A stretch of 64,000 nt of DNA from a virus (Duplodnaviria > Heunggongvirae > Uroviricota > Caudoviricetes), in the IMG/VR virus record IMGVR_UViG_3300021399_000101, positions 1,630 to 65,629 of that record, one strand, 5' to 3'. Under the pieces are notes generated by a model, which saw only the letters and a program-made list of their open reading frames with translations, was not told where the DNA came from and did no database searches. Each line of letters opens with the position of its first letter. Positions within the stretch are counted from its first letter, which is position 1. Both the position numbers and the translations under genes were made by a program. Below are positions 43,570-55,572 of the stretch, piece by piece.

Positions 43570-44928
43570 ATGAACGAAACTACAAGAACATACTACATTA
43601 ATAAAGCTGAAGAATTTGAAAAAGCTTCCAATTATAAAGATGCATTGTCTTCTTATATGGAAGCTTTTTCTATTAAAGAGTGTTTGGAAGGCGACAATCC
43701 AGATTTTTTTGAGCCTGGCTTTATAGAGGATAAAATAGCGTTTCTGTCTTATAGACTTGGAGATTTTAGAAAGGCAGTTACTTTTGGTGGAAAAGCATAT
43801 AGAGCAAACGAAAAAGACGAAAGAATTAAAAACAATGTCCCGTTTTATACAGACGCTTTGTTCTTTTTAAATAAAAAACCTATTTTTGATGGATTCATAA
43901 AAAAATATATTATTGATAATTTTTCGAGCGATACTACAATCCTTGATGTTGGAGCATATGATGGAAGATGGTCAGATGCGCTTAAAGAGCATTTCAAAAA
44001 AATAGATGCAATTGAGGCTTTTGAACCTTATGTTGAACGTTACTCCTTAAAAGAAAAATACAATAATGTTTTTGTTCAGGACGTATGTGATTTCAAATTT
44101 AAACATTATGATTTGATTATAATGGGTGATGTTCTTGAGCATTTGCCAATTGAAAAAGCACAGCAACTTATTAAGAAAATATATTCTAAGTGCAAGCAGC
44201 TTTTAATAATAGTGCCATATGAATACCCCCAAGACGAATACGATGATAATAAATATCAAATTCATGTTCAAGAAGACCTTACAGACGAGATATTTAAAGA
44301 GAGATATCCAGGATTTGATTTGCTAGCGCACGATGAAATAAGAGGGGCTTATGTAAAAGAAGGAACCTGTAGTGAAGCAACTGAAATTACATATACTGGC
44401 GAAAACCCAAGAACCCTTGAGGCCGGATTGATTTACTTTGAAAGCCGTGAATATAGCAAAGCACTTGGAGTATTCAGAAACTCATTAGAAGAAATGAGCA
44501 ATGAACATAAAGCAATAATGAAGTATTATTCAGGACTTTGCTACACAAGAAACAACGAGAACACTTTAGAGGCTTTAAAATATTTTATTGATGCGGTTGA
44601 ATTGCTTCCTATTTTTGAAGAAGCATATGTAGAGCTGTTCGCACTTTTAGAGAAATTTGAGTTATGGGGTGATTTAGAGTATTATATAAGGCTTGCTCTA
44701 AAACATAAAGAAGAAATGGAAATGCCAGATAATATGAAGAATGAATGGAAATCAATTCTTTTCATTCAAATGACTTTGGCCCTTTTCAAGCAAGAAAAAT
44801 ATTTTGAGGCTTATGGATATGCGACATTAGCTCTTGATATACCGACTAGCGACGAAAGAAAAAAGATTGCTCAAAATAATTTTGACCAGCTTAAAGAAGC
44901 ACTTTGGAGTACATTACAACTACAATGA
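43570..44928 (+). CDS. TPR - class I SAM methyltransferase - TPR protein
   Basis: TILDVGAYDGRW, AIEAFEPY, YDLIIMGDVLEHL; TPR helices on both sides. Confidence 0.8.
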   Translation: MNETTRTYYINKAEEFEKASNYKDALSSYMEAFSIKECLEGDNPDFFEPGFIEDKIAFLSYRLGDFRKAVTFGGKAYRANEKDERIKNNVPFYTDALFFLNKKPIFDGFIKKYIIDNFSSDTTILDVGAYDGRWSDALKEHFKKIDAIEAFEPYVERYSLKEKYNNVFVQDVCDFKFKHYDLIIMGDVLEHLPIEKAQQLIKKIYSKCKQLLIIVPYEYPQDEYDDNKYQIHVQEDLTDEIFKERYPGFDLLAHDEIRGAYVKEGTCSEATEITYTGENPRTLEAGLIYFESREYSKALGVFRNSLEEMSNEHKAIMKYYSGLCYTRNNENTLEALKYFIDAVELLPIFEEAYVELFALLEKFELWGDLEYYIRLALKHKEEMEMPDNMKNEWKSILFIQMTLALFKQEKYFEAYGYATLALDIPTSDERKKIAQNNFDQLKEALWSTLQLQ

Positions 44929-46463
44929 AAACATGCATTTACACAATATGTAAAAACGACTCTAAATTTATAGATAAATGGTTTGACTCTTTAAAAGATT
45001 ATGATTGCATTGCAGCAGTAGTCCATGACAGCAAAGACAATACAGCAGAAAAACTTTTAGCTTATGGAGCTAAAGTAGCTTTCACCCATTATCAGAATGA
45101 GCCAAACACCGCTGAAGAAGACGCTTTAAATTTTGCTAAACAAGTAGCGCCAGATTGCGATAACTTTGTGTTTACTCCTATTAACAGAACTGATGAATAT
45201 TTGAGTGATGATGCTTCAATATCAGAACAAGAAAGCAGGCTAGTTGAATATTATTATGGTATTAAAAACTATGAAGAAGCATATAGGCACGCTATTTTTG
45301 CTTTAGCACTTGACCCAGAAAACGAGCAGAAAAAGCATAATTGCGAAATCTGCCGCAGGTTGGTTGTAAACAAGATTTGCGTATATACGGTTTGCAGAAA
45401 TGAATCAGAGTTCGTAGAAAAATGGGTTGAAAACAATAAAGACGCAGACCACATCGTTGCTTTGGTTCACGATTGTACTGATGATACAGCTGAGAAACTC
45501 AAAGCGCTTAATGTAGATGTCGGCTATGGTTTTTATAATGAATGGAGATTCGATAATGGCAAGAACGATTCAATGCACCTTGCCTATTCACTTGCCCCGG
45601 AATGTAACATATTTGTGTTTACTTCTTTAGATGAATTCTGGGAGACGGAAGATTGGGTACGTATTGTAAAGGAATGCTGGGGCCCCGAAACTACCAAGCA
45701 ATGCTGGTACAACTTCGTTCAAACACATGATGAGTTTGAGAACGACACTGGAATAACGCATTTTAACTGGATGACATCAAGAGATCCGAAATGGCACTGG
45801 GAGTATCCAATTCATGAATCAATTTCCTATGGTGATAACGAAGAAGTAAAAGACTGTATTAATTTATTTGATGTCTTAAAACTTCAGCATCGCCCTAAAA
45901 AAGGAAAAGTCAGAAGTTATATGGACCTCCATAAGCTTAGGTGGGAAGAATATAAAGATGATATAAGCTGCCTTTATTTAATTCGTGAGAATATAATCCA
46001 TGGATTTGCTGAAGAAGCGTATAGAATAGCAAAAGATTTTGACCATGAGCATACCGATTTACAACCTGAGGAAAATGCATACATCTGGATGATGGAAGGT
46101 ATGTGTCTTGAATATTTTGGGAGAACAGGCGAAGCGCTTAAATGTTATGAAAATGCTTATGAGGTGGATAAGTCGCTAAGGTCACCCCTTATTAGAGCAG
46201 GCTTACTTTATGCAAAATGCGAAATGTATAGCAAGGCAGAAGAAATTATCGAAAAAGCGCTTAATGAAACAACAAGAAATTATACATGGCTTGAAGACCC
46301 ATGGGACTGGAGAAGTAAGCCGTATTATTGGTTGTCATATATAAATCTAAAACTTGGGAATAAAGAAAAAGCCCTGGGCTATGCACTATTTGCTTATCAG
46401 ATAGATTCAACAGATGAATTAAAAGAACATTACGAAAAAGTATTAAAAGAATGTACGTCTTAA
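44925..46463 (+). CDS. GT2-family glycosyltransferase with TPRs and a duplicated N-terminal half-domain
   Basis: ICVYTVCRNESEFVEKW...DCTDDT...SLDE...WEYPIHE; C-terminal TPRs; start MKTC at 44925 overlaps the previous stop (ATGA). Confidence 0.8.
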   Translation: MKTCIYTICKNDSKFIDKWFDSLKDYDCIAAVVHDSKDNTAEKLLAYGAKVAFTHYQNEPNTAEEDALNFAKQVAPDCDNFVFTPINRTDEYLSDDASISEQESRLVEYYYGIKNYEEAYRHAIFALALDPENEQKKHNCEICRRLVVNKICVYTVCRNESEFVEKWVENNKDADHIVALVHDCTDDTAEKLKALNVDVGYGFYNEWRFDNGKNDSMHLAYSLAPECNIFVFTSLDEFWETEDWVRIVKECWGPETTKQCWYNFVQTHDEFENDTGITHFNWMTSRDPKWHWEYPIHESISYGDNEEVKDCINLFDVLKLQHRPKKGKVRSYMDLHKLRWEEYKDDISCLYLIRENIIHGFAEEAYRIAKDFDHEHTDLQPEENAYIWMMEGMCLEYFGRTGEALKCYENAYEVDKSLRSPLIRAGLLYAKCEMYSKAEEIIEKALNETTRNYTWLEDPWDWRSKPYYWLSYINLKLGNKEKALGYALFAYQIDSTDELKEHYEKVLKECTS

Positions 46464-46465
46464 TT

Positions 46466-46490
46466 AGAGCCGCCTAAGCGGCTCTTTTCT
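46466..46490 (+). terminator. Rho-independent terminator
   Basis: AGAGCCGC-CTAA-GCGGCTCT-TTTCT. Confidence 0.8.
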
Positions 46491-46555
46491 TATAGGGCGG
46501 CCCATAAATGTCAAGATAAATTTGAGTAATATTGTTCTCTTAACAAGGAAGAAAA

Positions 46556-48088
46556 ATGGCCCAGGTAAAATTAAGAACAGATGGCGGTGCAGATTTACAA
46601 AGCGCATTGATAGTTAATGCAGCCGTAGGAACAGGACTGCCAGAAGATTTTTCTGCAAATCAACACAGCTATTTAGCATATTATAGACACACAGCGGCTC
46701 AGAACGCAAATAACTTGTCAGATGGTTGGCATGATATGAAGGCATATGTAACTAACTGCGCCACTACATCCAATCATGGTACGTTCATCCAGAACAGCTA
46801 TGGTGGCACTCCATTTCAAATATGGATTCCAGATGCTAACGATTATATCTATAAAAGATATAGCACAACTGGATTTACCGGCGGAGAAGGTTGGAAAAAA
46901 CTATCAGCTGGCTATGCAGATTCAGCTCCTTGGACTGGCGTATCTGGAAGACCTACTGCTGTATCCTCTTTCACTAATGATGCTGGATATATAACTGGAA
47001 TCACTAAAGCAACAGTTACAGCAGCTTTAGGCTATACTCCTCCAACTACAAATACTACATATAGCAACGCTACAACGTCTGCGGCGGGTCTTATGTCTGC
47101 AGCTGATAAAATAAAACTCAATGGAGTAGAAACAGGCGCTAATAAATACAGTCTTCCTACAGCTGCCACAGGAACCCTTGGCGGTGTTAAGGTAGGCGCA
47201 AACATTACAATAGATGCTTCTGGCGTAATTAGTCCTACAAAGACTGGTGTTACAGCGGCTTTAGGTTATACTCCGCTTTCAACAACTGGTAAAGCTGCAT
47301 CTGCCGGAAGCGCTGATAGTGCCGGAAGCGTCCCATGGACAGGGGTTACAAACAGGCCCACTGCTGTATCGTCTTTCACTAATGATGCTGGTTATATAAC
47401 TGGAATCACTAAAGCAACAGTAACTGCTGCTCTTGGATATACACCTCCTACCACAAACACAACATACTCTGCAGCAACCACTACTTATGCCGGTTTAGTA
47501 AAAGTAGGAAACAATATCACTATAGATGCATCTGGTGTAATTAGTCCTACAAAGACTGGCGTTACAGCAGCTTTAGGTTATACTCCTCCAACAACTAATA
47601 CCACATATAGTGTTGCAACCACCACCTATGCTGGATTAGTAAAAGTAGGAAACAATATTTCCGCGGATGCTGCAGGTGTTATCAGCCCAACTAAAACTGG
47701 TGTTACAGCGGCACTTGGATATACACCACCTACTACAAATACCACATATTCAGCTGCTACAACCACTTATGCTGGATTGGTAAAAGTGGGAAACAACATT
47801 TCAATAGACTCCTCTGGTATTATTAGCCCTACCAAAACTGGCGTTACAGCTGCTCTAGGATATACACCAACATCATCAGATACCAAAAATACCGCTGGAG
47901 CTACAAACACAACAGCTAAAATATTTTTAGTAGGAGCTACAACACAAGGAGCTGGACCGCAAACATATTCAAACTCCGCTGTATATGCGACAAACGGAGA
48001 TTTCTATGCAACAAAATTTTATGTAGGTGGTACAGTAGCTTATATTTCTTATAACACGGGAAGTGGCGCAATTGAATTTAATAATTAA
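46556..48088 (+). CDS. Tail fibre protein with repeated GVTAALGYTPPTTNTTYS modules
   Basis: Modules shared with 43170-43440 of the upstream fibre gene. Confidence 0.8.
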   Translation: MAQVKLRTDGGADLQSALIVNAAVGTGLPEDFSANQHSYLAYYRHTAAQNANNLSDGWHDMKAYVTNCATTSNHGTFIQNSYGGTPFQIWIPDANDYIYKRYSTTGFTGGEGWKKLSAGYADSAPWTGVSGRPTAVSSFTNDAGYITGITKATVTAALGYTPPTTNTTYSNATTSAAGLMSAADKIKLNGVETGANKYSLPTAATGTLGGVKVGANITIDASGVISPTKTGVTAALGYTPLSTTGKAASAGSADSAGSVPWTGVTNRPTAVSSFTNDAGYITGITKATVTAALGYTPPTTNTTYSAATTTYAGLVKVGNNITIDASGVISPTKTGVTAALGYTPPTTNTTYSVATTTYAGLVKVGNNISADAAGVISPTKTGVTAALGYTPPTTNTTYSAATTTYAGLVKVGNNISIDSSGIISPTKTGVTAALGYTPTSSDTKNTAGATNTTAKIFLVGATTQGAGPQTYSNSAVYATNGDFYATKFYVGGTVAYISYNTGSGAIEFNN

Positions 48089-48096
48089 GGTGAAAT

Positions 48097-50505
48097 ATGA
48101 GTCTTAAAGTATGGTTGCCATTAAATGGCGATATAAAAAATTATGGTGCCTCAAATTTAACGTTTACAAATAACGGCCCTGATAATATTGTCCCAAATAC
48201 TTCTGGAAAAATAGGCTCTTGCTATAAAAGAGCAACCGTTAACTCTTTAGGGCGTATAATATCCAATGAAAACATTTTATTAGATGGAGATTTTTCTATG
48301 TGTTGTTGGGCATATGTAACAGCCACAGTTGGCTCAACAGCAAATGGCTTAGTATCTAATCATGACCATACGTATAGCTCTGGCGCCGGCATAAACGTTA
48401 AACAGATATCAGATTCTGATTATAGAATATGTTGTAGCACTGGTTATGGTTCTGGGAGAACATTTGATACTTATTATGGAACAACTAATATTAAAAATAG
48501 TTGGCATCATTTAACACTAACATATAGAAAAACCGCTCAAACTTTATTATTATATTGTGATGGAGTTCTTGAAAAAACAGTTACTGGCTATAATAATAGC
48601 GCTAGAAGCTCTCAAATAATGGTTTTTGACTGGAGCATTCCATATACTTCAAATAATTTCAAGCCAGCTTGTAGTTTAAATGACGTACGCATATACGATG
48701 AGTGTTTAAGCCCAGATGAAGTAAAAGAAATATCAAAAGCATTAGTAGCATATTATCCGCTAAATCAACCAAGTAGAAACGCAAATCTCATTTCAAGTTT
48801 TTCTGCTGGAAGAAATATTTCCATAGAAAACAATAATGTAATAATAAAAGCGCAAAGTACAGTATCCGATACGTATTTTACGATTAGACTTAATGAAGCC
48901 TTACTTGCAAACACCACTTATACATTATCATGTAAAATTAAAAACATGAACTGTTCGACAAGCTGGTTTTTCCCATTGTTTGCCCAAGGAAACCCAATTT
49001 CAAAACAGCTTGAAATATACAATAATAAGCCAACTACAAGTGTCAGCTTTTCGTTGCCGACAGGTAGCTCATATGTTGGAGCAACAACTATTTTTATGGA
49101 TGATTTGGGCAGGCCGTCAAGCAACCCAAATGATATAACATTATACAATTTCAAATTGGAAAAAGGCGATGTAGCAACACCGTGGTATCCTCCAATTGAT
49201 TCGGCGAGGTTGGATTTAATTGAATACGATAATTCCGGATATAATAGGAATGGGGCGACGACAGATTCAACAAAACCGAGTTTGGTAGTTGATTCCCCAA
49301 GAAACTCTGGTTCTTATCATTTTTCTGCCAACACCCAAAATCTGAGCTTGAATACCAGCTTTCTTCCTACGTTTACAGCTGGCACTGTTTCTTGGTGGGC
49401 GAAAATCGTTCAGAATGGTACGACAGGCACTTTACCATTTACAGGTCACGAACTCGGATACTGGATAGCAGCGTCATCTGGATGGACTGGCGCTTTCTAT
49501 AGTCAAGGCATAAGCGGGAGCGGATATACAATAAAATATTATATAGATGGCGTTGAAGATACCACACCGTCAGGGGCTGATTCCAAATGGCATCATTATA
49601 TGGTGACCGGAGTGAACTTATCAAAATGGACTAAACTTTGGTTGAACAACTACGATGCTGCTTGGAATTCTCCTAATATATATTATTCAGACATCAAATT
49701 CTATAATACAGTTCTTTCAGCAGAGGATGTATCAAAAGAATATCATCGCTTTGCTGCAATTTATTCAGACCATTCACTTGCCACAAATGAAGTGCAAGAG
49801 TATACGGGAAATAATCTTATTCAGAAGGCTAATAACGGTATCGCAAATAAATCATATACAGGAGCGCTTTCTTCATATACGCAAAGCAACTGTCAAGTTT
49901 CGCTTACAGACAATGGTTATAGAATTTACAGGCCAGCAAATAAAACACCGTCTGCTGATGGAAATACAATGTGGGGCGGATTAGTAATTAGACCCTATAA
50001 TGAAAATAATACAGATGTATTTATTAAGGGGCATACATATATCCTTAAATGGCATGTAAAAGGCAAAAGTTCAAACTCCGCTGATTTTGGATGGTCTAAT
50101 AATGTAGGGTGGGGAGGAGGAGGATTAATGCCCTCACCATCTAATGATTCTTGGCAAAACATATCTACTAATTTTAACGGAGAAATGGAATGCTGGTATA
50201 AATGGACAATAAATGACGATGTGTATAAAGTGTGTACATCATCATACTCCAGTTTTGTTCAGGGACAAACTTATTTGTCGTATCGAGATTTTAAATTTGG
50301 GTTCAGCTATACAGACACGGGAAGCTTAGGAACTGATTTATACATTACAAATGTACGATTATACGATATAACAAACGATAATCAGAAAGTTAAAATTGGG
50401 GTGAATGGAGTAATAAATGGAAACATTGTAGAAGGCAATTTTGATAATGTTTCTATGCTTCCAGATGGAGAATTTTACACCACTCAATTTATTGAAAGGA
50501 TTTAA
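48097..50505 (+). CDS. Receptor-binding protein with two LamG/concanavalin-like domains and carbohydrate-binding-like inserts
   Basis: LKVWLPLNG, FSMCCW, WHHLTLTY...LLLYCDGV, LNDVRIYDECLSPDEV, LVAYYPLN, WHHYMVT, YSDIKFYNTVLSAEDV. Confidence 0.85.
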   Translation: MSLKVWLPLNGDIKNYGASNLTFTNNGPDNIVPNTSGKIGSCYKRATVNSLGRIISNENILLDGDFSMCCWAYVTATVGSTANGLVSNHDHTYSSGAGINVKQISDSDYRICCSTGYGSGRTFDTYYGTTNIKNSWHHLTLTYRKTAQTLLLYCDGVLEKTVTGYNNSARSSQIMVFDWSIPYTSNNFKPACSLNDVRIYDECLSPDEVKEISKALVAYYPLNQPSRNANLISSFSAGRNISIENNNVIIKAQSTVSDTYFTIRLNEALLANTTYTLSCKIKNMNCSTSWFFPLFAQGNPISKQLEIYNNKPTTSVSFSLPTGSSYVGATTIFMDDLGRPSSNPNDITLYNFKLEKGDVATPWYPPIDSARLDLIEYDNSGYNRNGATTDSTKPSLVVDSPRNSGSYHFSANTQNLSLNTSFLPTFTAGTVSWWAKIVQNGTTGTLPFTGHELGYWIAASSGWTGAFYSQGISGSGYTIKYYIDGVEDTTPSGADSKWHHYMVTGVNLSKWTKLWLNNYDAAWNSPNIYYSDIKFYNTVLSAEDVSKEYHRFAAIYSDHSLATNEVQEYTGNNLIQKANNGIANKSYTGALSSYTQSNCQVSLTDNGYRIYRPANKTPSADGNTMWGGLVIRPYNENNTDVFIKGHTYILKWHVKGKSSNSADFGWSNNVGWGGGGLMPSPSNDSWQNISTNFNGEMECWYKWTINDDVYKVCTSSYSSFVQGQTYLSYRDFKFGFSYTDTGSLGTDLYITNVRLYDITNDNQKVKIGVNGVINGNIVEGNFDNVSMLPDGEFYTTQFIERI

Positions 50506-50507
50506 AG

Positions 50508-51686
50508 ATGGCTCAACTAACATCGACGATTATATATGGCGCGCTATCAGTAACAGATACTATAAGTGAAAGTGGAACTTTGCTTTCTGCAAAATATGCT
50601 GCCAAATCTCATTCACATACTTATGTTCCTGCTGGTACTATAAGCGTTGGGAGCGGAACTGCCAACTACACCCCAACAGGTTCAGTAGGAGTTTCTGTAA
50701 CACAACACTCTTACACCCCAACAGGCTCAGTAGGAGTTTCTGTAACACAGCATTCTTACACACCAACAGGCTCAGTATCTGTAAGTATTACTGACCATAG
50801 TTATACACCTGCTGGTACTATAAGCACTGGAACCGGAACTGCCAATTACACTCCAACAGGTTCAGTAGGAGTTTCTGTAACACAACACTCTTATACTCCA
50901 ACAGGTTCAGTATCTGTAAGTATTACTGACCATAGTTATACTCCAGCTGGAACTATAAGTACTGGAACTGGAACTGCCAACTACACCCCAACAGGAACTG
51001 TGTCTGTAAGTATTACTGACCACTCTTATACTCCAACAGGAACTGTGTCTGTAAGTATTACTGACCACTCTTATACTCCAACAGGAACTGTGTCTGTAAG
51101 TATTACTGACCACTCTTATACTCCAACAGGAACTGTAAGCGTATCGCCATCATTAAGCGCAACATACACATCTGGAACTAAAACTTTGGCATTAGGTGTT
51201 TCTGCTTCTGGAAGTTTCTCTGGTTCGGCAGCTACATTGTCACACACAAGGTCTGGAAGCTTTACTGGTACAAAAGCAACGCTTTCACATACAAGGTCAG
51301 GAAGTTTTACTGGTACTGCAGCTACATTATCGCACACAAGGTCTGGAAGCTTTACTGGTACTGGAAAACAGCTTGTGTTCTCTGGCTCAGCAGCTACATT
51401 ATCGCATACAAGGTCAGGAAGTTTCACTGGTACTGCAGCGACACTTACACATACGGCTTCTGGAAGCTTTACCGGTACTGGAAAACAGCTTGTGTTCTCT
51501 GGTTCGGCAGCAACGCTTTCACATACAAGGTCAGGAAGTTTTACTGGTACTGCGGCTACATTATCGCATACAGCTTCAGGAAGTTTCACTGGTACTGCAG
51601 CGACACTTACACATACGGCTTCTGGAAGCTTTACCGGTACTGGAAAACAGCTTGTGTTCTCTGGCACAACAGGAACAGCATCCTAA
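50508..51686 (+). CDS. Mirror-repeat His/Thr/Ser-rich needle-like fibre protein
   Basis: N-half TPTG(S/T)VSVS(IT/VT)(D/Q)HSY units; C-half ATL(S/T)HT(R/A)SGSFTG units in inverse order. Confidence 0.75.
   Translation: MAQLTSTIIYGALSVTDTISESGTLLSAKYAAKSHSHTYVPAGTISVGSGTANYTPTGSVGVSVTQHSYTPTGSVGVSVTQHSYTPTGSVSVSITDHSYTPAGTISTGTGTANYTPTGSVGVSVTQHSYTPTGSVSVSITDHSYTPAGTISTGTGTANYTPTGTVSVSITDHSYTPTGTVSVSITDHSYTPTGTVSVSITDHSYTPTGTVSVSPSLSATYTSGTKTLALGVSASGSFSGSAATLSHTRSGSFTGTKATLSHTRSGSFTGTAATLSHTRSGSFTGTGKQLVFSGSAATLSHTRSGSFTGTAATLTHTASGSFTGTGKQLVFSGSAATLSHTRSGSFTGTAATLSHTASGSFTGTAATLTHTASGSFTGTGKQLVFSGTTGTAS
50994..51130 (+). repeat. Three exact tandem 45-bp coding repeats
   Basis: GGAACTGTGTCTGTAAGTATTACTGACCACTCTTATACTCCAACA x3. 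Confidence 0.9.
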
Positions 51687-51706
51687 AACGCAACTTAACA
51701 TGTTAC

Positions 51707-51736
51707 AAACCCAGCCTAAAAGCTGGGTTTTTATTT
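51707..51736 (+). terminator. Rho-independent terminator
   Basis: AAACCCAGC-CTAAAA-GCTGGGTTT-TTATTTC. Confidence 0.8.
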
Positions 51737-51749
51737 CTTATATAATTTT

Positions 51750-52325
51750 ATGGATAATAATTATGTTTTTGCTTTAGATGTTGACGGTGTTCTCACTGAT
51801 GGAAAGTTTTTGTGGGACGCCGAAGGAAATAAAGCTTATAAAGAATTTGGCCCAGACGATGCTGATGCTCTTAAAATTCTTGCAAGATATATGCCTGTAG
51901 TTCTTTTTTCTAAGGACGGCAAAGGCTATAAAATTTCAGAAAGCAGGGCTAACCATATGGGCTTTCCAATCTACTATATGGATACGCAAGAAAGGCTTGA
52001 TTTTATTGCCAAAGTGTTTGGTGTTTCAAATGCAATTTATATGGGAGATTCTTTCATGGATGTGCCTGTATTAAAATTGTGTAAGTATGGCATAGCCACA
52101 GATACTTCTTCACCTTATGCAAAAGAAGCAGCCGATTATGTTACTACAACAGGTGGAGGAAACAGAGCGGTTGCCGAAGCTTGTTTTTGGATTATGAAAA
52201 ACGTCTTGAAAATGAATTCTGTAGAGCTGATAACAGGCGCTTCCTTAGAGCTTGACAACAAACCATGCGAATTAAAAACTTATGAGATGGGATTATATGA
52301 TATACGAAAAAGAAATTCTAAATGA
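51750..52325 (+). CDS. KdsC/YrbI-like HAD sugar-phosphate phosphatase
   Basis: ALDVDGVLTDG, YMGDSFMDVPVL, DYVT...GGNRAVAE. Confidence 0.85.
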   Translation: MDNNYVFALDVDGVLTDGKFLWDAEGNKAYKEFGPDDADALKILARYMPVVLFSKDGKGYKISESRANHMGFPIYYMDTQERLDFIAKVFGVSNAIYMGDSFMDVPVLKLCKYGIATDTSSPYAKEAADYVTTTGGGNRAVAEACFWIMKNVLKMNSVELITGASLELDNKPCELKTYEMGLYDIRKRNSK

Positions 52326-52860
52326 AATAAAGCAAGTACTTGACTCAATAGACGATAAAGATGTAGATAAACTTGTTGAAATGATTGAGTCGTCTGATAA
52401 GGTTGTCGGCTACGGGGCTGGAAGAATGGGGTTAAGTGTTAAAGCATTCATAATGCGCCTTAATCATCTTGGCATAAATGCGTACTACGTAGATGACACA
52501 TATATCCCGCCATTAACCGAATTCGATTTGCTTCTTGTATCAAGTGGTTCTGGTGAAACCACAATGGTAAAGACATTTATGAAAAAAGCCATTGAAAAAA
52601 CCGGATGCGCTGCAGCAGTAGTCACAGGAGACAAAGATTCAAGCATGGCTAGAATGGCTAATCTTGCTGTAACATTTAAACCTTGCAACGGTGGCTTAAA
52701 TTCAGCTGATTCAATTGAAAAAATAAATTCAATCCAGCTTATGAGTACTCTTAATGAGCAGGCTACATATATTTTGTTTGATATAATAGCAAAAAGAATC
52801 GCTGATGATTTGAATATGGACACTGAAAAAACAAAGAGGTACCACTTCAATGTCGAATGA
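52297..52860 (+). CDS. SIS-domain sugar-phosphate isomerase (HxlB/PHI-like)
   Basis: VVGYGAGRMG...AFIMRLNHLG, LLLVSSGSGET, MSTLNEQ; start MIYEK at 52297 preferred. Confidence 0.85.
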   Translation: MIYEKEILNEIKQVLDSIDDKDVDKLVEMIESSDKVVGYGAGRMGLSVKAFIMRLNHLGINAYYVDDTYIPPLTEFDLLLVSSGSGETTMVKTFMKKAIEKTGCAAAVVTGDKDSSMARMANLAVTFKPCNGGLNSADSIEKINSIQLMSTLNEQATYILFDIIAKRIADDLNMDTEKTKRYHFNVE

Positions 52861-52864
52861 AAAC

Positions 52865-53020
52865 ATGATAGTTTTTTCAGATTGGTTACTTGTATGTAAT
52901 ATGGATTATGATAAGAAATTTATTGACCTGAATAAATTAAAAAACATCAAATCGCCAAATATACCTATAAAATATTTAGGAAAAATAAAAATAAACAGGA
53001 ATTTAAAGAATGTTAAATAA
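52865..53020 (+). CDS. Small 51-aa ORF filling the gap between the SIS and epimerase genes
   Basis: Own translation MIVFSDWLLVCNMDYDKKFIDLNKLKNIKSPNIPIKYLGKIKINRNLKNVK; below the ORF-track cutoff; overlaps the next start. Confidence 0.45.
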   Translation: MIVFSDWLLVCNMDYDKKFIDLNKLKNIKSPNIPIKYLGKIKINRNLKNVK

Positions 53021-53738
53021 AATAACCGCTTCACTTATTTGCATGGATTTATCTGATATAAAAACAGATATAGACACACTTCTTGATAACGGAATAAATT
53101 CTCTTCATGCCGATTTTATGGACAATACATTTGTTCCGAGGCTTGGAATAAGTCCAGAGCTGATAAAGTGGATAAAAAACAGGTACGGCGACAATGTTCA
53201 TATAGATTCTCATCTTATGGTTCAAAATCCATATCAGTGTATAGATGTAATAGCTCCGTTCTCAGACTGGGTTTTCTTCCATTATGAAGCAGTTTCTGAC
53301 CCCGTGAGAATATTGCAGAAGCTCTGTGAACATGATGTAAAGAAAGGGATAGTTTATAATATAGGGACAGATACAAACGAATCTTTGATTAATACAAATC
53401 TTGTCAATGGTGTTATGTTTATGGGTATCAGCCCTGGGGTTCTGGGAACAAGGTCCTGGCCTGAAATCTTAAAAGAGAAGATGATACAACACAGATGTAT
53501 AATTGAGCGTATAATAAAGCATGATGACATTCCTGTATTTCTTGACGGAGGAATAGATTTCAATTCAATAGGTGAACTTACAAAAGACTTGAATATTATA
53601 TTCAGTTCTTGCAAGGGAGCAGATAAGGTTGTCTGCGGCTCATCCACTTTGTTTAAAATAGATGATGATACCTGCCTCATGGATAGAGAGGAAATGATTA
53701 AATTCAATATCCGCAGAATTGAAGAGGCAATGCAATGA
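53010..53738 (+). CDS. Ribulose-phosphate 3-epimerase family (Rpe/AlsE-like)
   Basis: ASLICMD, LHADFMDNTFVPRLG, DSHLMV, FHYEA, FMGISPG, LDGGI, VCGSS. Confidence 0.9.
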   Translation: MLNKITASLICMDLSDIKTDIDTLLDNGINSLHADFMDNTFVPRLGISPELIKWIKNRYGDNVHIDSHLMVQNPYQCIDVIAPFSDWVFFHYEAVSDPVRILQKLCEHDVKKGIVYNIGTDTNESLINTNLVNGVMFMGISPGVLGTRSWPEILKEKMIQHRCIIERIIKHDDIPVFLDGGIDFNSIGELTKDLNIIFSSCKGADKVVCGSSTLFKIDDDTCLMDREEMIKFNIRRIEEAMQ

Positions 53739-53956
53739 AAGTAAAAGAACTTATAAAAAAGCTTGAAACTTATGACCCTGAATATGATATGATGATAGCG
53801 CTTCCTCCGGGATGGTATAAAGAGGAAGACACTGAAAACGAAGAGATTTGGGAAAAAGACGGTTGGAGTCTTGATTCCATAGATTATGTAATTATCTCAG
53901 ATAAAAACAGATTTGTGTCAGTATGCCCTATTAACGCTCCAAAGGAAATAGAATGA
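53735..53956 (+). CDS. Small hypothetical protein (MxVKELI-type N-terminus)
   Basis: MKVKELIKKLETYDPEYD; coupled on both sides. Confidence 0.7.
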   Translation: MKVKELIKKLETYDPEYDMMIALPPGWYKEEDTENEEIWEKDGWSLDSIDYVIISDKNRFVSVCPINAPKEIE

Positions 53957-55572
53957 GAACAGTAGTAATTCCTTCTGCCGGTACAGGCTCACGTCTCGGC
54001 GATTTTACTAAAAACTATAACAAAGCCATGTGTACGCTTGGCCCCAAGCCTGTAATCTCTTACATTATAGAACATTTCACCAAGGAAGATGAGATTATAA
54101 TTCTTCTTGGATATAAAGGAGACTTACTCAGGCAGGTAGTCAAAGCATGCTATCCTGACTGGAATATAAAATTTGTCGAGGTTGATATTTATGAAGGCCC
54201 AAGAAGCGGTCTAGGTTATTCTCTTTCAAAAGCATATGATTATTTACAAAAGCCGTTTATCTTCTGGCCCAATGACACGCTATTAGAAAACGACATAAAT
54301 GACATGCTTTATGATAACAACTGGATTATAGTCGGCAGCCACGAGCAAGATTCCAGAAGTTATAGACACGCTATAGGAAATAAGAATGATAACAGCTTGA
54401 CGATGATTCTTCCAAAATCTTCAATTGGATATAAATTTTCTTATCCTTATACTGGAGTTTGCTTCGTAAAAGACTATGAAAACTTTTGGGACGCTTTTCG
54501 TTCTAATAGAGAAACTTTTATAAATGAAGGAGAGGTAATCGGTTTAAACAATCTCGATAACATAATAATTTATCCTGCAGAAAGATGGATTGACACAGGC
54601 AATAAAGAGCTGTTTGAAAAAGCCAAAATCGAATACTCAAGAAGAATGGAAGAAACAGTACTGGAAAAACCAGACGAGGCAATTTGGTTTATTGATAGCA
54701 GAGTTATCAAATTCCATATTGATAAAAAGTTTATATCTGATAGGGTAAAAAGATTTGGCACATTACTTTCTGATGGCCAAAAAAAGGCCGGAATGAAAAT
54801 ACCGAAGCTTCTTTATCATGATGAGAATGTTTATGTCTATAAAAGAGAACCTGGGATAATAGCTTCCAGGGAAATAGATATAAGTGTTTTTGACCGTCTC
54901 CTTGATGGGTTCTTCAGGTTTAAAGAGGAAAAACTAACAGACGAAGAAGCTTTAAGAATTTATACTGATTTTTATAGAGATAAAACAATTTCCAGAATAA
55001 ATAAATTTTGCGATGAAAATGGAGAATCAGATGGAGAGCCTGTTTTTATAAATGGACTTGCGTGTAGGTCGGCTCTAGACCTTGTTAAATTAATCAATTG
55101 GGAATACATTTCAAAAAACGGAGTTTTTACAAAAAACTATCATGGAGACTTTCATCTTGAAAACATATTAATTCAAAAAGACAATTTCGTGTTACTTGAT
55201 TGGAGGCAAAACTTCGGCAAGTCTGAAATAGGCGATGCCTATTATGACCTTGCTAAAATGTGGCACTCTTTAATAGTCAATCATATGATGGTTAAAGATA
55301 TGAGGTTCACAGTTGAAAATGTCGGAAGAAACTCAATCAAAATAGACATAGACAGAACATTTATAGATACCGAATGCGAGAATGACCTTAAAAACTACAT
55401 TGAAAGAAACTTCATACTGGAACAGGCTGAATTACTTACATGCTTAATATTTCTTAATATAGCCGCTTGTCATGTTTATCCATATTCAAGGTTTTTGTTC
55501 TATCTAGGAAAATACCTACTTAACAGTTTTTATTATAGACATATAGACAGTAAAATATTTAAGACCGCTTAG
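53953..55572 (+). CDS. Bifunctional sugar-phosphate nucleotidyltransferase plus APH/choline-kinase-like kinase
   Basis: VIPSAGTGSRLG...NKAM (nucleotidyltransferase), WIDTG; C-terminal YHGDFHLENIL, LLDWR, YYDLAK (APH fold). Confidence 0.85.
   Translation: MRTVVIPSAGTGSRLGDFTKNYNKAMCTLGPKPVISYIIEHFTKEDEIIILLGYKGDLLRQVVKACYPDWNIKFVEVDIYEGPRSGLGYSLSKAYDYLQKPFIFWPNDTLLENDINDMLYDNNWIIVGSHEQDSRSYRHAIGNKNDNSLTMILPKSSIGYKFSYPYTGVCFVKDYENFWDAFRSNRETFINEGEVIGLNNLDNIIIYPAERWIDTGNKELFEKAKIEYSRRMEETVLEKPDEAIWFIDSRVIKFHIDKKFISDRVKRFGTLLSDGQKKAGMKIPKLLYHDENVYVYKREPGIIASREIDISVFDRLLDGFFRFKEEKLTDEEALRIYTDFYRDKTISRINKFCDENGESDGEPVFINGLACRSALDLVKLINWEYISKNGVFTKNYHGDFHLENILIQKDNFVLLDWRQNFGKSEIGDAYYDLAKMWHSLIVNHMMVKDMRFTVENVGRNSIKIDIDRTFIDTECENDLKNYIERNFILEQAELLTCLIFLNIAACHVYPYSRFLFYLGKYLLNSFYYRHIDSKIFKTA

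What the first reader, a model, noticed from the sequence alone, without database searches (positions are those of the whole stretch)
50508..51686. Mirror-image ('palindromic') protein: a fold-back needle with a ladder of 8 paired His sites
Seen in sequence: the N-half reads A-BBB-A-BB-A-BBB (A = PAGTIS(V/T)G(S/T)GTANY; B = TPTG(S/T)V(S/G)VS(VTQ/ITD)HSY). A unique turn follows (SPSLSATYTSGTKTLALGVS). The C-half reads B'B'B'-A'-B'B'-A'-B'B'B'-A' (B' = ATL(S/T)HT(R/A)SGSFTG; A' = TGKQLVFSG), the exact reverse order, with 8 His on each arm. Established: the T4 gp37 tip is a trimeric six-stranded antiparallel needle holding metal ions through His-x-His pairs. Inference: here each metal layer takes one His from the outgoing and one from the returning strand (6 His per trimer layer), and the turn is the receptor tip. 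Length changes would need matched duplications in two distant DNA segments. The exact 45-bp triplication at 50994-51130 suggests recent expansion.
Basis: partly seen in the sequence, partly recalled or inferred. Interest (0 to 1): 0.85.

Follow-up and report, generated by a model that had tools for sequence, protein, structure and literature searches.

The report
Fold-back phage fibre needle, split-histidine ladder
A giant cattle-gut phage encodes a fibre protein that is almost nothing but two mirror-matched repeat arms. Comparison with relatives indicates that the arms fold back on each other like the needle at the tip of phage T4's long tail fibre, with one histidine from each arm at eight levels.

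Summary
ORF 50508-51686 (392 aa) reads A-BBB-A-BB-A-BBB, a 33-aa turn, then B'B'B'-A'-B'B'-A'-B'B'B'-A', with 8 His in each arm.

New evidence supports a fold-back.
- Every N-arm ..ITDHS unit faces a ..SHTRSGS unit in mirror register, and every ..VTQHS unit faces ..HTASGS (8 of 8).
- In about 50 metagenomic homologues the two arms co-vary in unit type, number, length and order. Of 14 distinct architectures, 13 were concordant, and 0 of 20000 shuffles reached that.
- Relatives P0013, P0017 and P0149 carry the same His units as an insertion inside a T4 gp10/gp37-type collar. P0013 also has a gp37-like head between its arms (E 1e-7).

So the arms are most likely the outgoing and returning strands of a gp37-type needle. 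This protein lacks both the collar and the head.

The metal ladder (3+3 His per layer) is plausible. His is present in both arms or in neither, and other relatives put HxH on one arm only. It remains untested.

No structure prediction worked. Two relatives have unmatched arms, possibly through assembly collapse of identical repeats. No Pfam, PHROG, NCBIfam or PDB entry matches the repeats.

This scan has already noted mirror-matched His-ladder fibres on other DNA (e1-3337659, e1-3217763).

Verdict: a new variant of a known kind, of moderately high interest.

The parts
46466..46485 (+). Terminator-like hairpin upstream of the three-gene fibre unit
46556..48088 (+). First gene of the unit: a 510-aa repeat-rich fibre protein with a head-fibre-like stretch
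   Evidence: (PF11133, E 5e-6)
48097..50505 (+). Second gene: an 802-aa virion structural protein with a Laminin_G_3 (ConA-like) domain. Its stop codon lies 2 nt before the needle gene's start codon.
   Evidence: PF13385, E 8.8e-13; phrog_26670, E 1.3e-40
50496..50500 (+). Shine-Dalgarno-like AAGGA 7 nt before the ATG, overlapping the end of the upstream gene (translational coupling)
   Evidence: read directly from the sequence
50508..51686 (+). Needle protein ORF, 392 aa (P0001)
   Evidence: All 24 listed differences to a ~7% diverged bovine-gut variant that fall inside the arms are at third codon positions.
50508..50621 (+). N-terminal 38-aa module ending in KSHSHTY (HxH at H34/H36). Presumed attachment piece and basal HxH site. 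A 56-aa metagenomic fragment (P0101) shares it at 68% identity.
50622..51116 (+). Outgoing arm: 11 units of 15 aa (A BBB A BB A BBB), YTPxG type, 8 His
50988..51136 (+). Exact 45-bp period, 3.3 copies (units u9-u11 and the start of u12)
51117..51215 (+). Turn (aa 204-236): a last YTPTG unit running into SPSLSATYTSGTKTLALGVSASGS. It looks like a reduced remnant of the ~70-aa head domain of the homologues.
51216..51656 (+). Returning arm: B'B'B' A' B'B' A' B'B'B' A' (15-aa and 9-aa units), FTGT type, 8 His
51657..51686 (+). C-terminal cap FSGTTGTAS and stop codon. Homologues end in the same kind of cap (FSGTxxTVTVS).
51707..51740 (+). Intrinsic-terminator-like hairpin plus T-run directly after the gene

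Best explanation
The gene encodes a virion fibre protein of an uncultured ~208-kb cattle-gut phage. It consists almost entirely of a gp37-type needle.

Proposed structure:
- The YTPxG-type arm (aa 39-203) runs out to a short turn (aa 204-236).
- The FTGT-type arm (aa 237-383) runs back antiparallel beside it, unit against unit: A with A', B with B'.
- By homology with the T4 gp37 tip, three chains would give a six-stranded needle with both termini at the base. This step is inferred.
- The 38-aa N-terminal module with its HxH probably anchors the needle to another fibre protein of the same three-gene transcription unit. This step is inferred.

Histidines: each B/B' pair brings one His from each arm to about the same level, so a trimer would have 3+3 His per layer, eight layers, plus one classical HxH layer at the base. 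I put about even odds on these layers binding a metal, as the HxH layers of gp37 bind Fe(II).

Needle length is set by the number of paired units, so viable length changes need matching changes in two DNA segments that lie ~100-1000 bp apart.

Shown here: the mirror layout, the arm co-variation and the homology chain. Inferred: the trimer, the metal, the attachment and the receptor role.
For: 1. Exact mirror order of unit types in P0001.

2. Residue covariation in mirror register. The five ..ITDHS units (u4, u7, u9, u10, u11) face the five ..HTRSGS units (c8, c5, c3, c2, c1). The three ..VTQHS units (u2, u3, u6) face the three ..HTASGS units (c10, c9, c6). That is 8 of 8, a chance of 1 in 56 given the composition.

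3. The duplication history is mirrored as well. u2 and u6 differ by 1 nt and u4 and u7 by 3 nt, while c6 = c10 and c7 = c11 (0 nt). The 135-nt and 117-nt super-repeats both have 2.8 copies.

4. Homologues:
- Of 61 proteins with at least one A and one A' motif, 52 have equal counts.
- Of 33 with at least two of each, 32 have every reversed N-arm interval equal to the C-arm interval plus 5-6 aa.
- These 33 cover 10 different spacing classes, from 15/9 to 83/77.
- Of 14 distinct architectures, 13 are concordant, and 0 of 20000 shuffles reached that.
- Both asymmetric architectures (P0001, P0032) fit the mirror order and not the direct order.

5. Unit lengths co-vary between arms: 11/11, 13/13, 15/15, 16/16.

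6. Matched indels occur in close relatives. P0049 vs P0126 differ by 55 aa and 47 aa at 80% identity. P0017 is 4/4 and P0149 is 3/3.

7. Topology. In P0013 and P0017 the T4 gp10 C-domain (PF21939, E 2.9e-27; PDB 2fkk) matches on both sides of the two-arm array, so the array starts and ends in one small domain. An AF2 model of P0149 puts the N-part of the collar and the last strand at pLDDT about 90-95.

8. P0013 residues 218-273, which lie between its arms, align to the T4 gp37 tip head at 39% identity, E 1e-7. P0001 aligns to both arms of P0013 at 40% identity, E 5e-26.

9. In gp37 the chain doubles back at the head, giving a six-strand needle whose HxH motifs bind Fe (PMC12609058).

10. His co-occurrence. 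One His per unit in both arms: P0001 8/8, P0013 3/3, P0017 4/4, P0149 3/3, P0043 4/4. HxH on one arm with none on the partner arm: P0076 (5 units), P0187 (4 units). No His in either arm: most of the family. The split and one-arm patterns each give six His per trimer layer.

11. The gene is real and under constraint. All 24 listed differences in the arms to a diverged bovine-gut variant are third-position. It has an SD site, translational coupling and a terminator.

12. Tail-module context of homologue P0004: tape measure, BppU_N, SGNH esterases, lysin.
Against: - There is no three-dimensional model. The AF2 monomer of P0001 had pLDDT 45.6, and the needle part of the P0149 model was below 50. 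Strand pairing, trimer state and His geometry are therefore all indirect.
- P0001 has neither the collar nor the gp37-like head of the relatives that link it to gp37.
- It has only one HxH. The arms carry single His, which has no solved precedent known to me.
- Two relatives have unmatched arms. P0030 is 2 A vs 3 A' at 78% identity to the 3/3 protein P0041. P0137 is 1 vs 3 His units at 91% identity to P0013.
- P0138 has a layer with His on one arm and Pro on the other.
- His+2 in the returning arm is Arg or Ala. In a regular strand that residue would face the same way as the His, so the local geometry cannot be a plain copy of an HxH site.
- The unit count of the assembly inside the exact 149-nt repeat is unverified.
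Confidence: 0.72

Rival explanations
1. The protein is a fold-back needle as above, but the histidine ladder binds no metal. The single His of each arm take part in a hydrogen-bond or charge network with the neighbouring Asp/Arg, Tyr and Thr, or act as a pH-sensitive latch.
For: - There is no HxH in the arms.
- The residue two after the C-arm His is Arg or Ala, not His.
- Asp/Arg co-vary right beside the two His.
- Most family members build the same two-arm needle with no His at all, so metal is not needed for the fold.
- P0138 tolerates Pro opposite a His.
Against: - His is kept in both arms of four or five separate lineages, at fixed positions: position 10 of the FTGT unit and two residues before the next YTP.
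- The alternative layout, HxH on one arm and none on the other, gives the same six His per trimer layer as the iron sites of gp37.
Confidence: 0.35
2. The arms pair, but between different chains rather than within one chain. Examples would be an antiparallel head-to-tail dimer or an open-ended polymer in which the N-arm of one subunit zips onto the C-arm of the next.
For: Mirror order and covariation show only that the N- and C-arm units are partners. They do not show that the partners are in the same chain.
Against: - In P0013, P0017 and P0149 the array is an insertion in a compact collar domain, which forces the same chain to return.
- The homologues have a small conserved turn/head domain between the arms.
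- In gp37 the same chain doubles back.
Confidence: 0.06
3. The protein is a straight, non-returning trimeric shaft made of two successive repeat blocks. The mirror order would be a by-product of repeat evolution, with no structural pairing.
For: Many phage fibre shafts are simple tandem repeats. No 3D model contradicts this directly.
Against: - A tandem duplication cannot copy a unit and its distant mirror partner at once. Yet order, number, length and residue type match across 13 of 14 architectures, and matched indels occur in close relatives.
- The collar-insertion topology of relatives argues against it.
Confidence: 0.04

Closest known systems
Receptor-binding tip of the phage T4 long tail fibre, gp37 residues ~811-1026 (PDB 2XGF), and its relatives in Bas63 gp26/gp27 and lambda Stf
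   Same: - The chain runs out, turns at the distal end and runs back, giving a six-strand needle in the trimer with histidine layers along the axis.
- There is a homology chain. P0001's arms match P0013's arms (E 5e-26). P0013 has a gp10/gp37-type collar and a head aligning to the gp37 head (E 1e-7).
- P0001 keeps one HxH at the base, KSHSHTY.
   Different: - P0001 has no collar domain, and a 33-aa turn in place of the head.
- The needle is built from regular 15-aa and 9-aa units of two complementary kinds in mirror order. gp37 has an irregular sequence.
- It has single His on each arm (3+3 per layer) instead of HxH from one arm.
- Its N-arm is about 165 residues, against my recollection of roughly 50-70 for the outgoing strand of gp37. 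That would make the needle perhaps two to three times longer, which is an inference.
- Metal binding has not been shown.
Gp10_C (PF21939) fibre proteins with PF03335-type ..SGTAASAGAHTHT.. repeats (e.g. P0140, P0152, P0217)
   Same: They share the collar-needle-head layout. Repeated units sit on both the outgoing and returning strands, in roughly equal numbers.
   Different: Those units carry HxH on both arms and are matched by Pfam. P0001's units are matched by no Pfam, PHROG or NCBIfam model and carry one His each.
Unnamed metagenomic family of two-arm fibre proteins (P0002-P0011, P0027, P0034-P0072 and others; best hit 41-42% identity)
   Same: - They use the same unit alphabet: YTPxG units including ..GTGTAN on the way out, FTGT units including FTGTGxELK on the way back.
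- They show the same mirror order and the same C-terminal cap.
   Different: - They have a 100-190-aa N-terminal domain (Mtd_N-like in P0035) and a ~70-aa head.
- Their B units are 11 aa and lack His.
- P0001 has 15-aa His-bearing B units in both arms, a 38-aa N-terminus and a minimal turn.

Membership tests
T4 gp37-type receptor-binding tip (collar-needle-head) | Collar domain (gp10_C / tail-collar fold) from which the needle leaves and to which it returns | tested here: not met
   P0001 has no Pfam, NCBIfam or PDB hit. Only 38 aa precede the arms and 9 aa follow them. The feature is met in relatives P0013, P0017 and P0149.
T4 gp37-type receptor-binding tip (collar-needle-head) | Outgoing and returning segments of one chain that are structural partners | tested here: met
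   The evidence is indirect: mirror order, D/R and Q/A covariation in 8 of 8 units, arm co-variation in 13 of 14 architectures, and matched indels.
T4 gp37-type receptor-binding tip (collar-needle-head) | Trimeric six-stranded beta needle seen in three dimensions | tested here: inconclusive
   AF2 monomer models had pLDDT 45.6 (P0001) and below 50 in the needle of P0149. Foldseek returned only weak gp10 rows.
T4 gp37-type receptor-binding tip (collar-needle-head) | His-x-His motifs along the needle | tested here: not met
   There is one HxH only (H34/H36). The 16 arm histidines are single, one per unit.
T4 gp37-type receptor-binding tip (collar-needle-head) | Head domain homologous to the gp37 head | tested here: not met
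   P0001 has a 33-aa turn. P0013 has the head (E 1e-7 to gp37).
T4 gp37-type receptor-binding tip (collar-needle-head) | Bound Fe(II) or another metal in octahedral six-His sites | not testable with these tools
   This needs ICP-MS, anomalous scattering or a structure.
Two-arm YTPxG/FTGT fibre family (unnamed, metagenomic) | YTPxG-type units on one arm, FTGT-type units on the other, in mirror order around a turn or head, with a terminal FxGTxxTxxxS cap | tested here: met
   E-values to family members are 1e-20 or weaker for a database of 5.8 billion sequences.
Phage_fiber repeat (PF03335) | Match to the Pfam model | tested here: not met
   Not reported for P0001 at E <= 0.01. It is present in some Gp10_C relatives.

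The most novel reading that the evidence does not exclude
P0001 is a free-standing, modular needle, and its family uses a two-alphabet pairing code. YTPxG-type units pair only with FTGT-type units, and sub-types are matched one to one: A with A', D-type with R-type, and 'D' with 'e' units in the other subfamily. Fibre length would then be programmed by matched repeat numbers. The histidine layers would be a so far undescribed split metal site, with three His from the outgoing and three from the returning strands. That would give about nine metal ions per trimer in a needle several times longer than that of T4.
Probability: 0.4. Interest if true: 0.8.

Novelty: new variant of a known kind. Interest (0 to 1): 0.66.

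Why it matters
The needle of the T4 long tail fibre is the textbook example of a metal-pinned fold-back fibre, but its sequence is irregular. That makes the rules for strand pairing hard to read.

Here, and in a large uncultured family with no Pfam, PHROG or PDB entry, the same kind of needle is written in short repeated units. Their partners can be read straight from the sequence. This gives three things:
- a natural experiment on how two distant DNA segments are kept in step;
- a simple model protein (392 aa, nothing but needle) for studying assembly and metal loading of such fibres;
- a possible kit of parts for fibres of chosen length.

If the 3+3 His layers bind metal, that widens the known ways in which phage fibres hold iron. 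This bears on proposals that phage tails carry a notable share of bound iron.

Tried and rejected
- Trimer prediction (complex prediction, aa 99-329 x 3 plus 4 Fe): no answer. pLDDT was 30-37 and the score 0.00, so it is not evidence either way.
- AF2 monomer of P0001 with a 31-sequence alignment: pLDDT 45.6, unusable.
- AF2 monomer of relative P0149: only the collar was confident. Foldseek of that model against the PDB gave T4 gp10 as the top rows, but with E values of only 7e-3 or weaker.
- ESM Atlas: the stored model has pTM 0.31 and the neighbours are uninformative.
- PDB sequence and profile searches with P0001 and alignment A1: nothing relevant.
- Pfam FhaA_N at 20.8 bits: below the cut-off, taken as a compositional artefact.
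- tblastn of P0001, P0004 and P0036 against 50,697 phage records, and megablast of the region: no family member. There was only an N-domain hit in a crAss-like phage. The low-complexity filter may hide some matches.
- Own genome: no paralogue of the arms, the N-terminal module or the turn.
- Literature search for the unit motifs: nothing.
- Laying Logan contigs: contigs break inside the repeats, so the unit count could not be confirmed. A 225-nt (5-unit) skip in one bovine-gut contig has only 40 nt on one side, at a contig end. I take it as repeat ambiguity, not a variant. RNA-library contigs cover parts of the gene at 100% identity, but carried-over DNA cannot be excluded.
- A -1 frameshift fusion with the upstream 802-aa gene: considered and dropped. 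Only four codons are open upstream of the ATG, and a good SD/ATG is present.
- Several low-scoring hits (P0080, P0081, P0100, P0116, P0123) are unrelated repeat proteins and were left out.

Full report
**What is there.** The window lies in a 207,680-bp IMG/VR virus record estimated 88% complete. Earlier notes of this scan call it an uncultured giant rumen phage. Near-identical or ~93% similar DNA occurs in animal-gut and bovine-gut runs.

ORF 50508-51686 (+) encodes 392 aa (P0001). It is the last gene of a three-gene unit: a 510-aa repeat fibre, an 802-aa Laminin_G_3 virion protein, and this gene. The unit is bracketed by terminator-like hairpins at 46466 and 51707. The gene has an AAGGA 7 nt before its ATG, inside the end of the upstream gene.

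**Observation.**
- aa 1-38: a short N-terminal module ending in KSHSHTY.
- aa 39-203: eleven 15-aa units, A BBB A BB A BBB.
- aa 204-236: the turn.
- aa 237-383: B'B'B' A' B'B' A' B'B'B' A'.
- aa 384-392: the cap FSGTTGTAS.

There are eight His on each arm, one per B or B' unit. The exact 45-bp period runs from 50988 to 51136.

**New internal evidence.** I numbered N-arm units u1-u11 and C-arm units c1-c11 and paired them in mirror register.
- All five ..ITDHS units face ..SHTRSGS units.
- All three ..VTQHS units face ..HTASGS units.
- This is an Asp/Arg versus Gln/Ala covariation right next to the two histidines. Given the composition, the chance is 1 in 56, on top of 1 in 165 for the A positions.

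DNA relationships are mirrored too. u2 and u6 differ by 1 nt and u4 and u7 by 3 nt, while their partners c10 = c6 and c11 = c7 are identical. The super-repeats of 135 nt (N) and 117 nt (C) both have 2.8 copies at 83-84% matches. A single tandem duplication cannot copy a unit and its distant partner, so the match must be maintained by selection.

If the two His of a pair are set level, Asp (His-1, outgoing) and Arg (His+2, returning) fall within one residue of each other on the base side of the layer. The covariation is therefore at least consistent with both His sitting in one layer. This is an inference.

**Homologues.** The two large protein searches found no close relative; the best is 41-42% identity. 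They did find a family of metagenomic phage proteins with the same design: YTPxG units including ..GTGTAN going out, a ~70-aa head, then FTGT units including FTGTGxELK coming back, and a similar cap.

I located the A and A' motifs automatically.
- Of 61 proteins, 52 have equal counts. Most of the rest have degenerate A motifs that the pattern missed.
- Of 33 proteins with at least two of each, 32 have every N-arm interval, read backwards, equal to the C-arm interval plus 5-6 aa.
- This holds across ten spacing classes: 15/9, 26/20, 32/27, 36/30, 37/31, 39/33, 45/39, 48/42, 60/54 and 83/77.
- Of 14 distinct architectures, 13 are concordant, and no shuffle out of 20000 reached that.
- The two asymmetric architectures fit only the mirror order.

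A second subfamily uses three-part super-units. Even the sub-types are complementary: an N-arm 'FTGSxxTSTGx' unit faces a C-arm 'FTGTxGxVS-VSGTP' unit and vice versa (P0044, P0053, P0060, P0062).

Close relatives differ by matched indels. P0049 and P0126 (80% identity) differ by 55 aa in one arm and 47 aa in the other. P0017 has 4/4 and P0149 3/3 His units.

There are exceptions. P0030 has 2 A against 3 A'. P0137 has 1 against 3 His units at 91% identity to P0013. Both lack copies of near-identical units, which short-read assemblers often collapse, but they may be real.

**Link to the T4 needle.** P0013, P0017 and P0149 carry the same His-bearing units (..SDHT-YTPAG.. and FTGTKATLxHT..). P0001 aligns to both arms of P0013 at 40% identity, E 5e-26.

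In these proteins the T4 gp10 C-terminal domain (PF21939, E 2.9e-27; PDB 2fkk) matches before and after the array. The array is therefore an insertion in one compact domain and must return to where it started. An AF2 model of P0149 is confident only for that split collar.

The segment between the arms of P0013 aligns to the head of the T4 gp37 tip: GEHSHY...GNHxH, 39% identity, E 1e-7. The gp37 tip is described as collar, needle and head. Its chain doubles back at the head, so the needle has six strands, and its HxH motifs hold Fe ions (PMC12609058).

The arms of P0001 are thus best read as the two strands of such a needle. P0001 itself has lost, or never had, the collar and the head.

**Histidines.** Three layouts occur in the wider family.
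- No His in either arm (most members).
- HxH on one arm and none on its partner (P0076 5 units, P0187 4 units, P0096 1 unit).
- One His on each arm (P0001 8/8, P0013 3/3, P0017 4/4, P0149 3/3, P0043 4/4).

In the third layout the His sits at fixed positions. The two His-bearing layouts give six His per trimer layer, the number that binds iron in gp37. This makes a metal ladder plausible but does not show it.

P0138 has one layer with Pro opposite His. The His-free members show that the fold does not need metal.

**The '45-bp recent expansion'.** The three identical N-arm units face three C-arm units that differ from each other at 6-13 nt. Homogenisation within the N-arm, or an assembly issue, fits better than a recent matched expansion.

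**Is the gene real?** A bovine-gut variant from another study differs at 39 of 514 positions in one long contig. All 24 listed differences that fall in the arms are at third codon positions. The few first- and second-position changes lie in the N-terminal module.

**What it is not.** No Pfam, PHROG, NCBIfam or PDB entry matches the repeats. No record among 50,697 phage genomes holds a member. The phage has no second copy.

**Limits.** All structure predictions failed or were uninformative. Trimer state, strand geometry, metal binding, attachment and receptor role are inferred.

**Earlier notes of this scan.** Mirror-matched histidine ladders in fibres of other phages have been described (e1-3337659, e1-3217763). 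They agree with this reading but are not independent tests.

**Verdict.** The fold-back reading is well supported by comparative evidence. The metal reading is open. This is a new variant of the gp37-type needle, notable for its purely modular, self-standing form and its split His layers.

Noticed in passing
window 46466-51740: The 510-aa fibre gene, the 802-aa Laminin_G_3 gene and the needle gene form one unit. Terminator-like hairpins bracket it, and the genes are separated by gaps of only 2-8 nt. The three products may build one composite fibre.
   Followed up: partly
window 43570-46463: Two genes just upstream encode a methyltransferase and a GT2-type glycosyltransferase, each fused to TPR repeats (PF13489, phrog_13126). 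They are possible protein-modifying enzymes placed beside very Ser/Thr-rich fibre genes.
   Followed up: no
window 51750-55572: Directly downstream lie a HAD phosphatase, a SIS isomerase, a ribulose-phosphate 3-epimerase and a nucleotidyltransferase-kinase fusion.
   Followed up: partly
P0044, P0053, P0060, P0062 (homologues): In the three-part subfamily the middle unit comes in two forms: 11 aa 'FTGSxxTSTGx' followed by YTP, or 9 aa 'FTGTxGxVS' followed by VSGTP. The form on one arm is always faced by the other form on the opposite arm, a complementary rather than identical pairing.
   Followed up: partly
P0030 vs P0041; P0137 vs P0013: Two near-identical pairs in which one member lacks 15 or 30 aa of one arm only. 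Either unmatched needles are tolerated, or identical tandem units were collapsed in assembly.
   Followed up: partly
P0014, P0019, P0043, P0054, P0104: In some collar-bearing relatives the arm order is swapped: FTGT-type units go out and YTPxG-type units come back. The two unit kinds are therefore partners, and neither is tied to one direction.
   Followed up: no
run X4, window 50845-51071: One bovine-gut contig joins 50845 to 51071, skipping 225 nt, which is exactly five 45-nt units. Only 40 nt lie on one side. It could be a shorter natural allele or a repeat artefact.
   Followed up: no
P0101: A 56-aa metagenomic fragment shares the N-terminal 41 aa at 68% identity, including KTHSHAY, and then continues with a different sequence. 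This suggests the N-terminal piece is an exchangeable attachment module.
   Followed up: no
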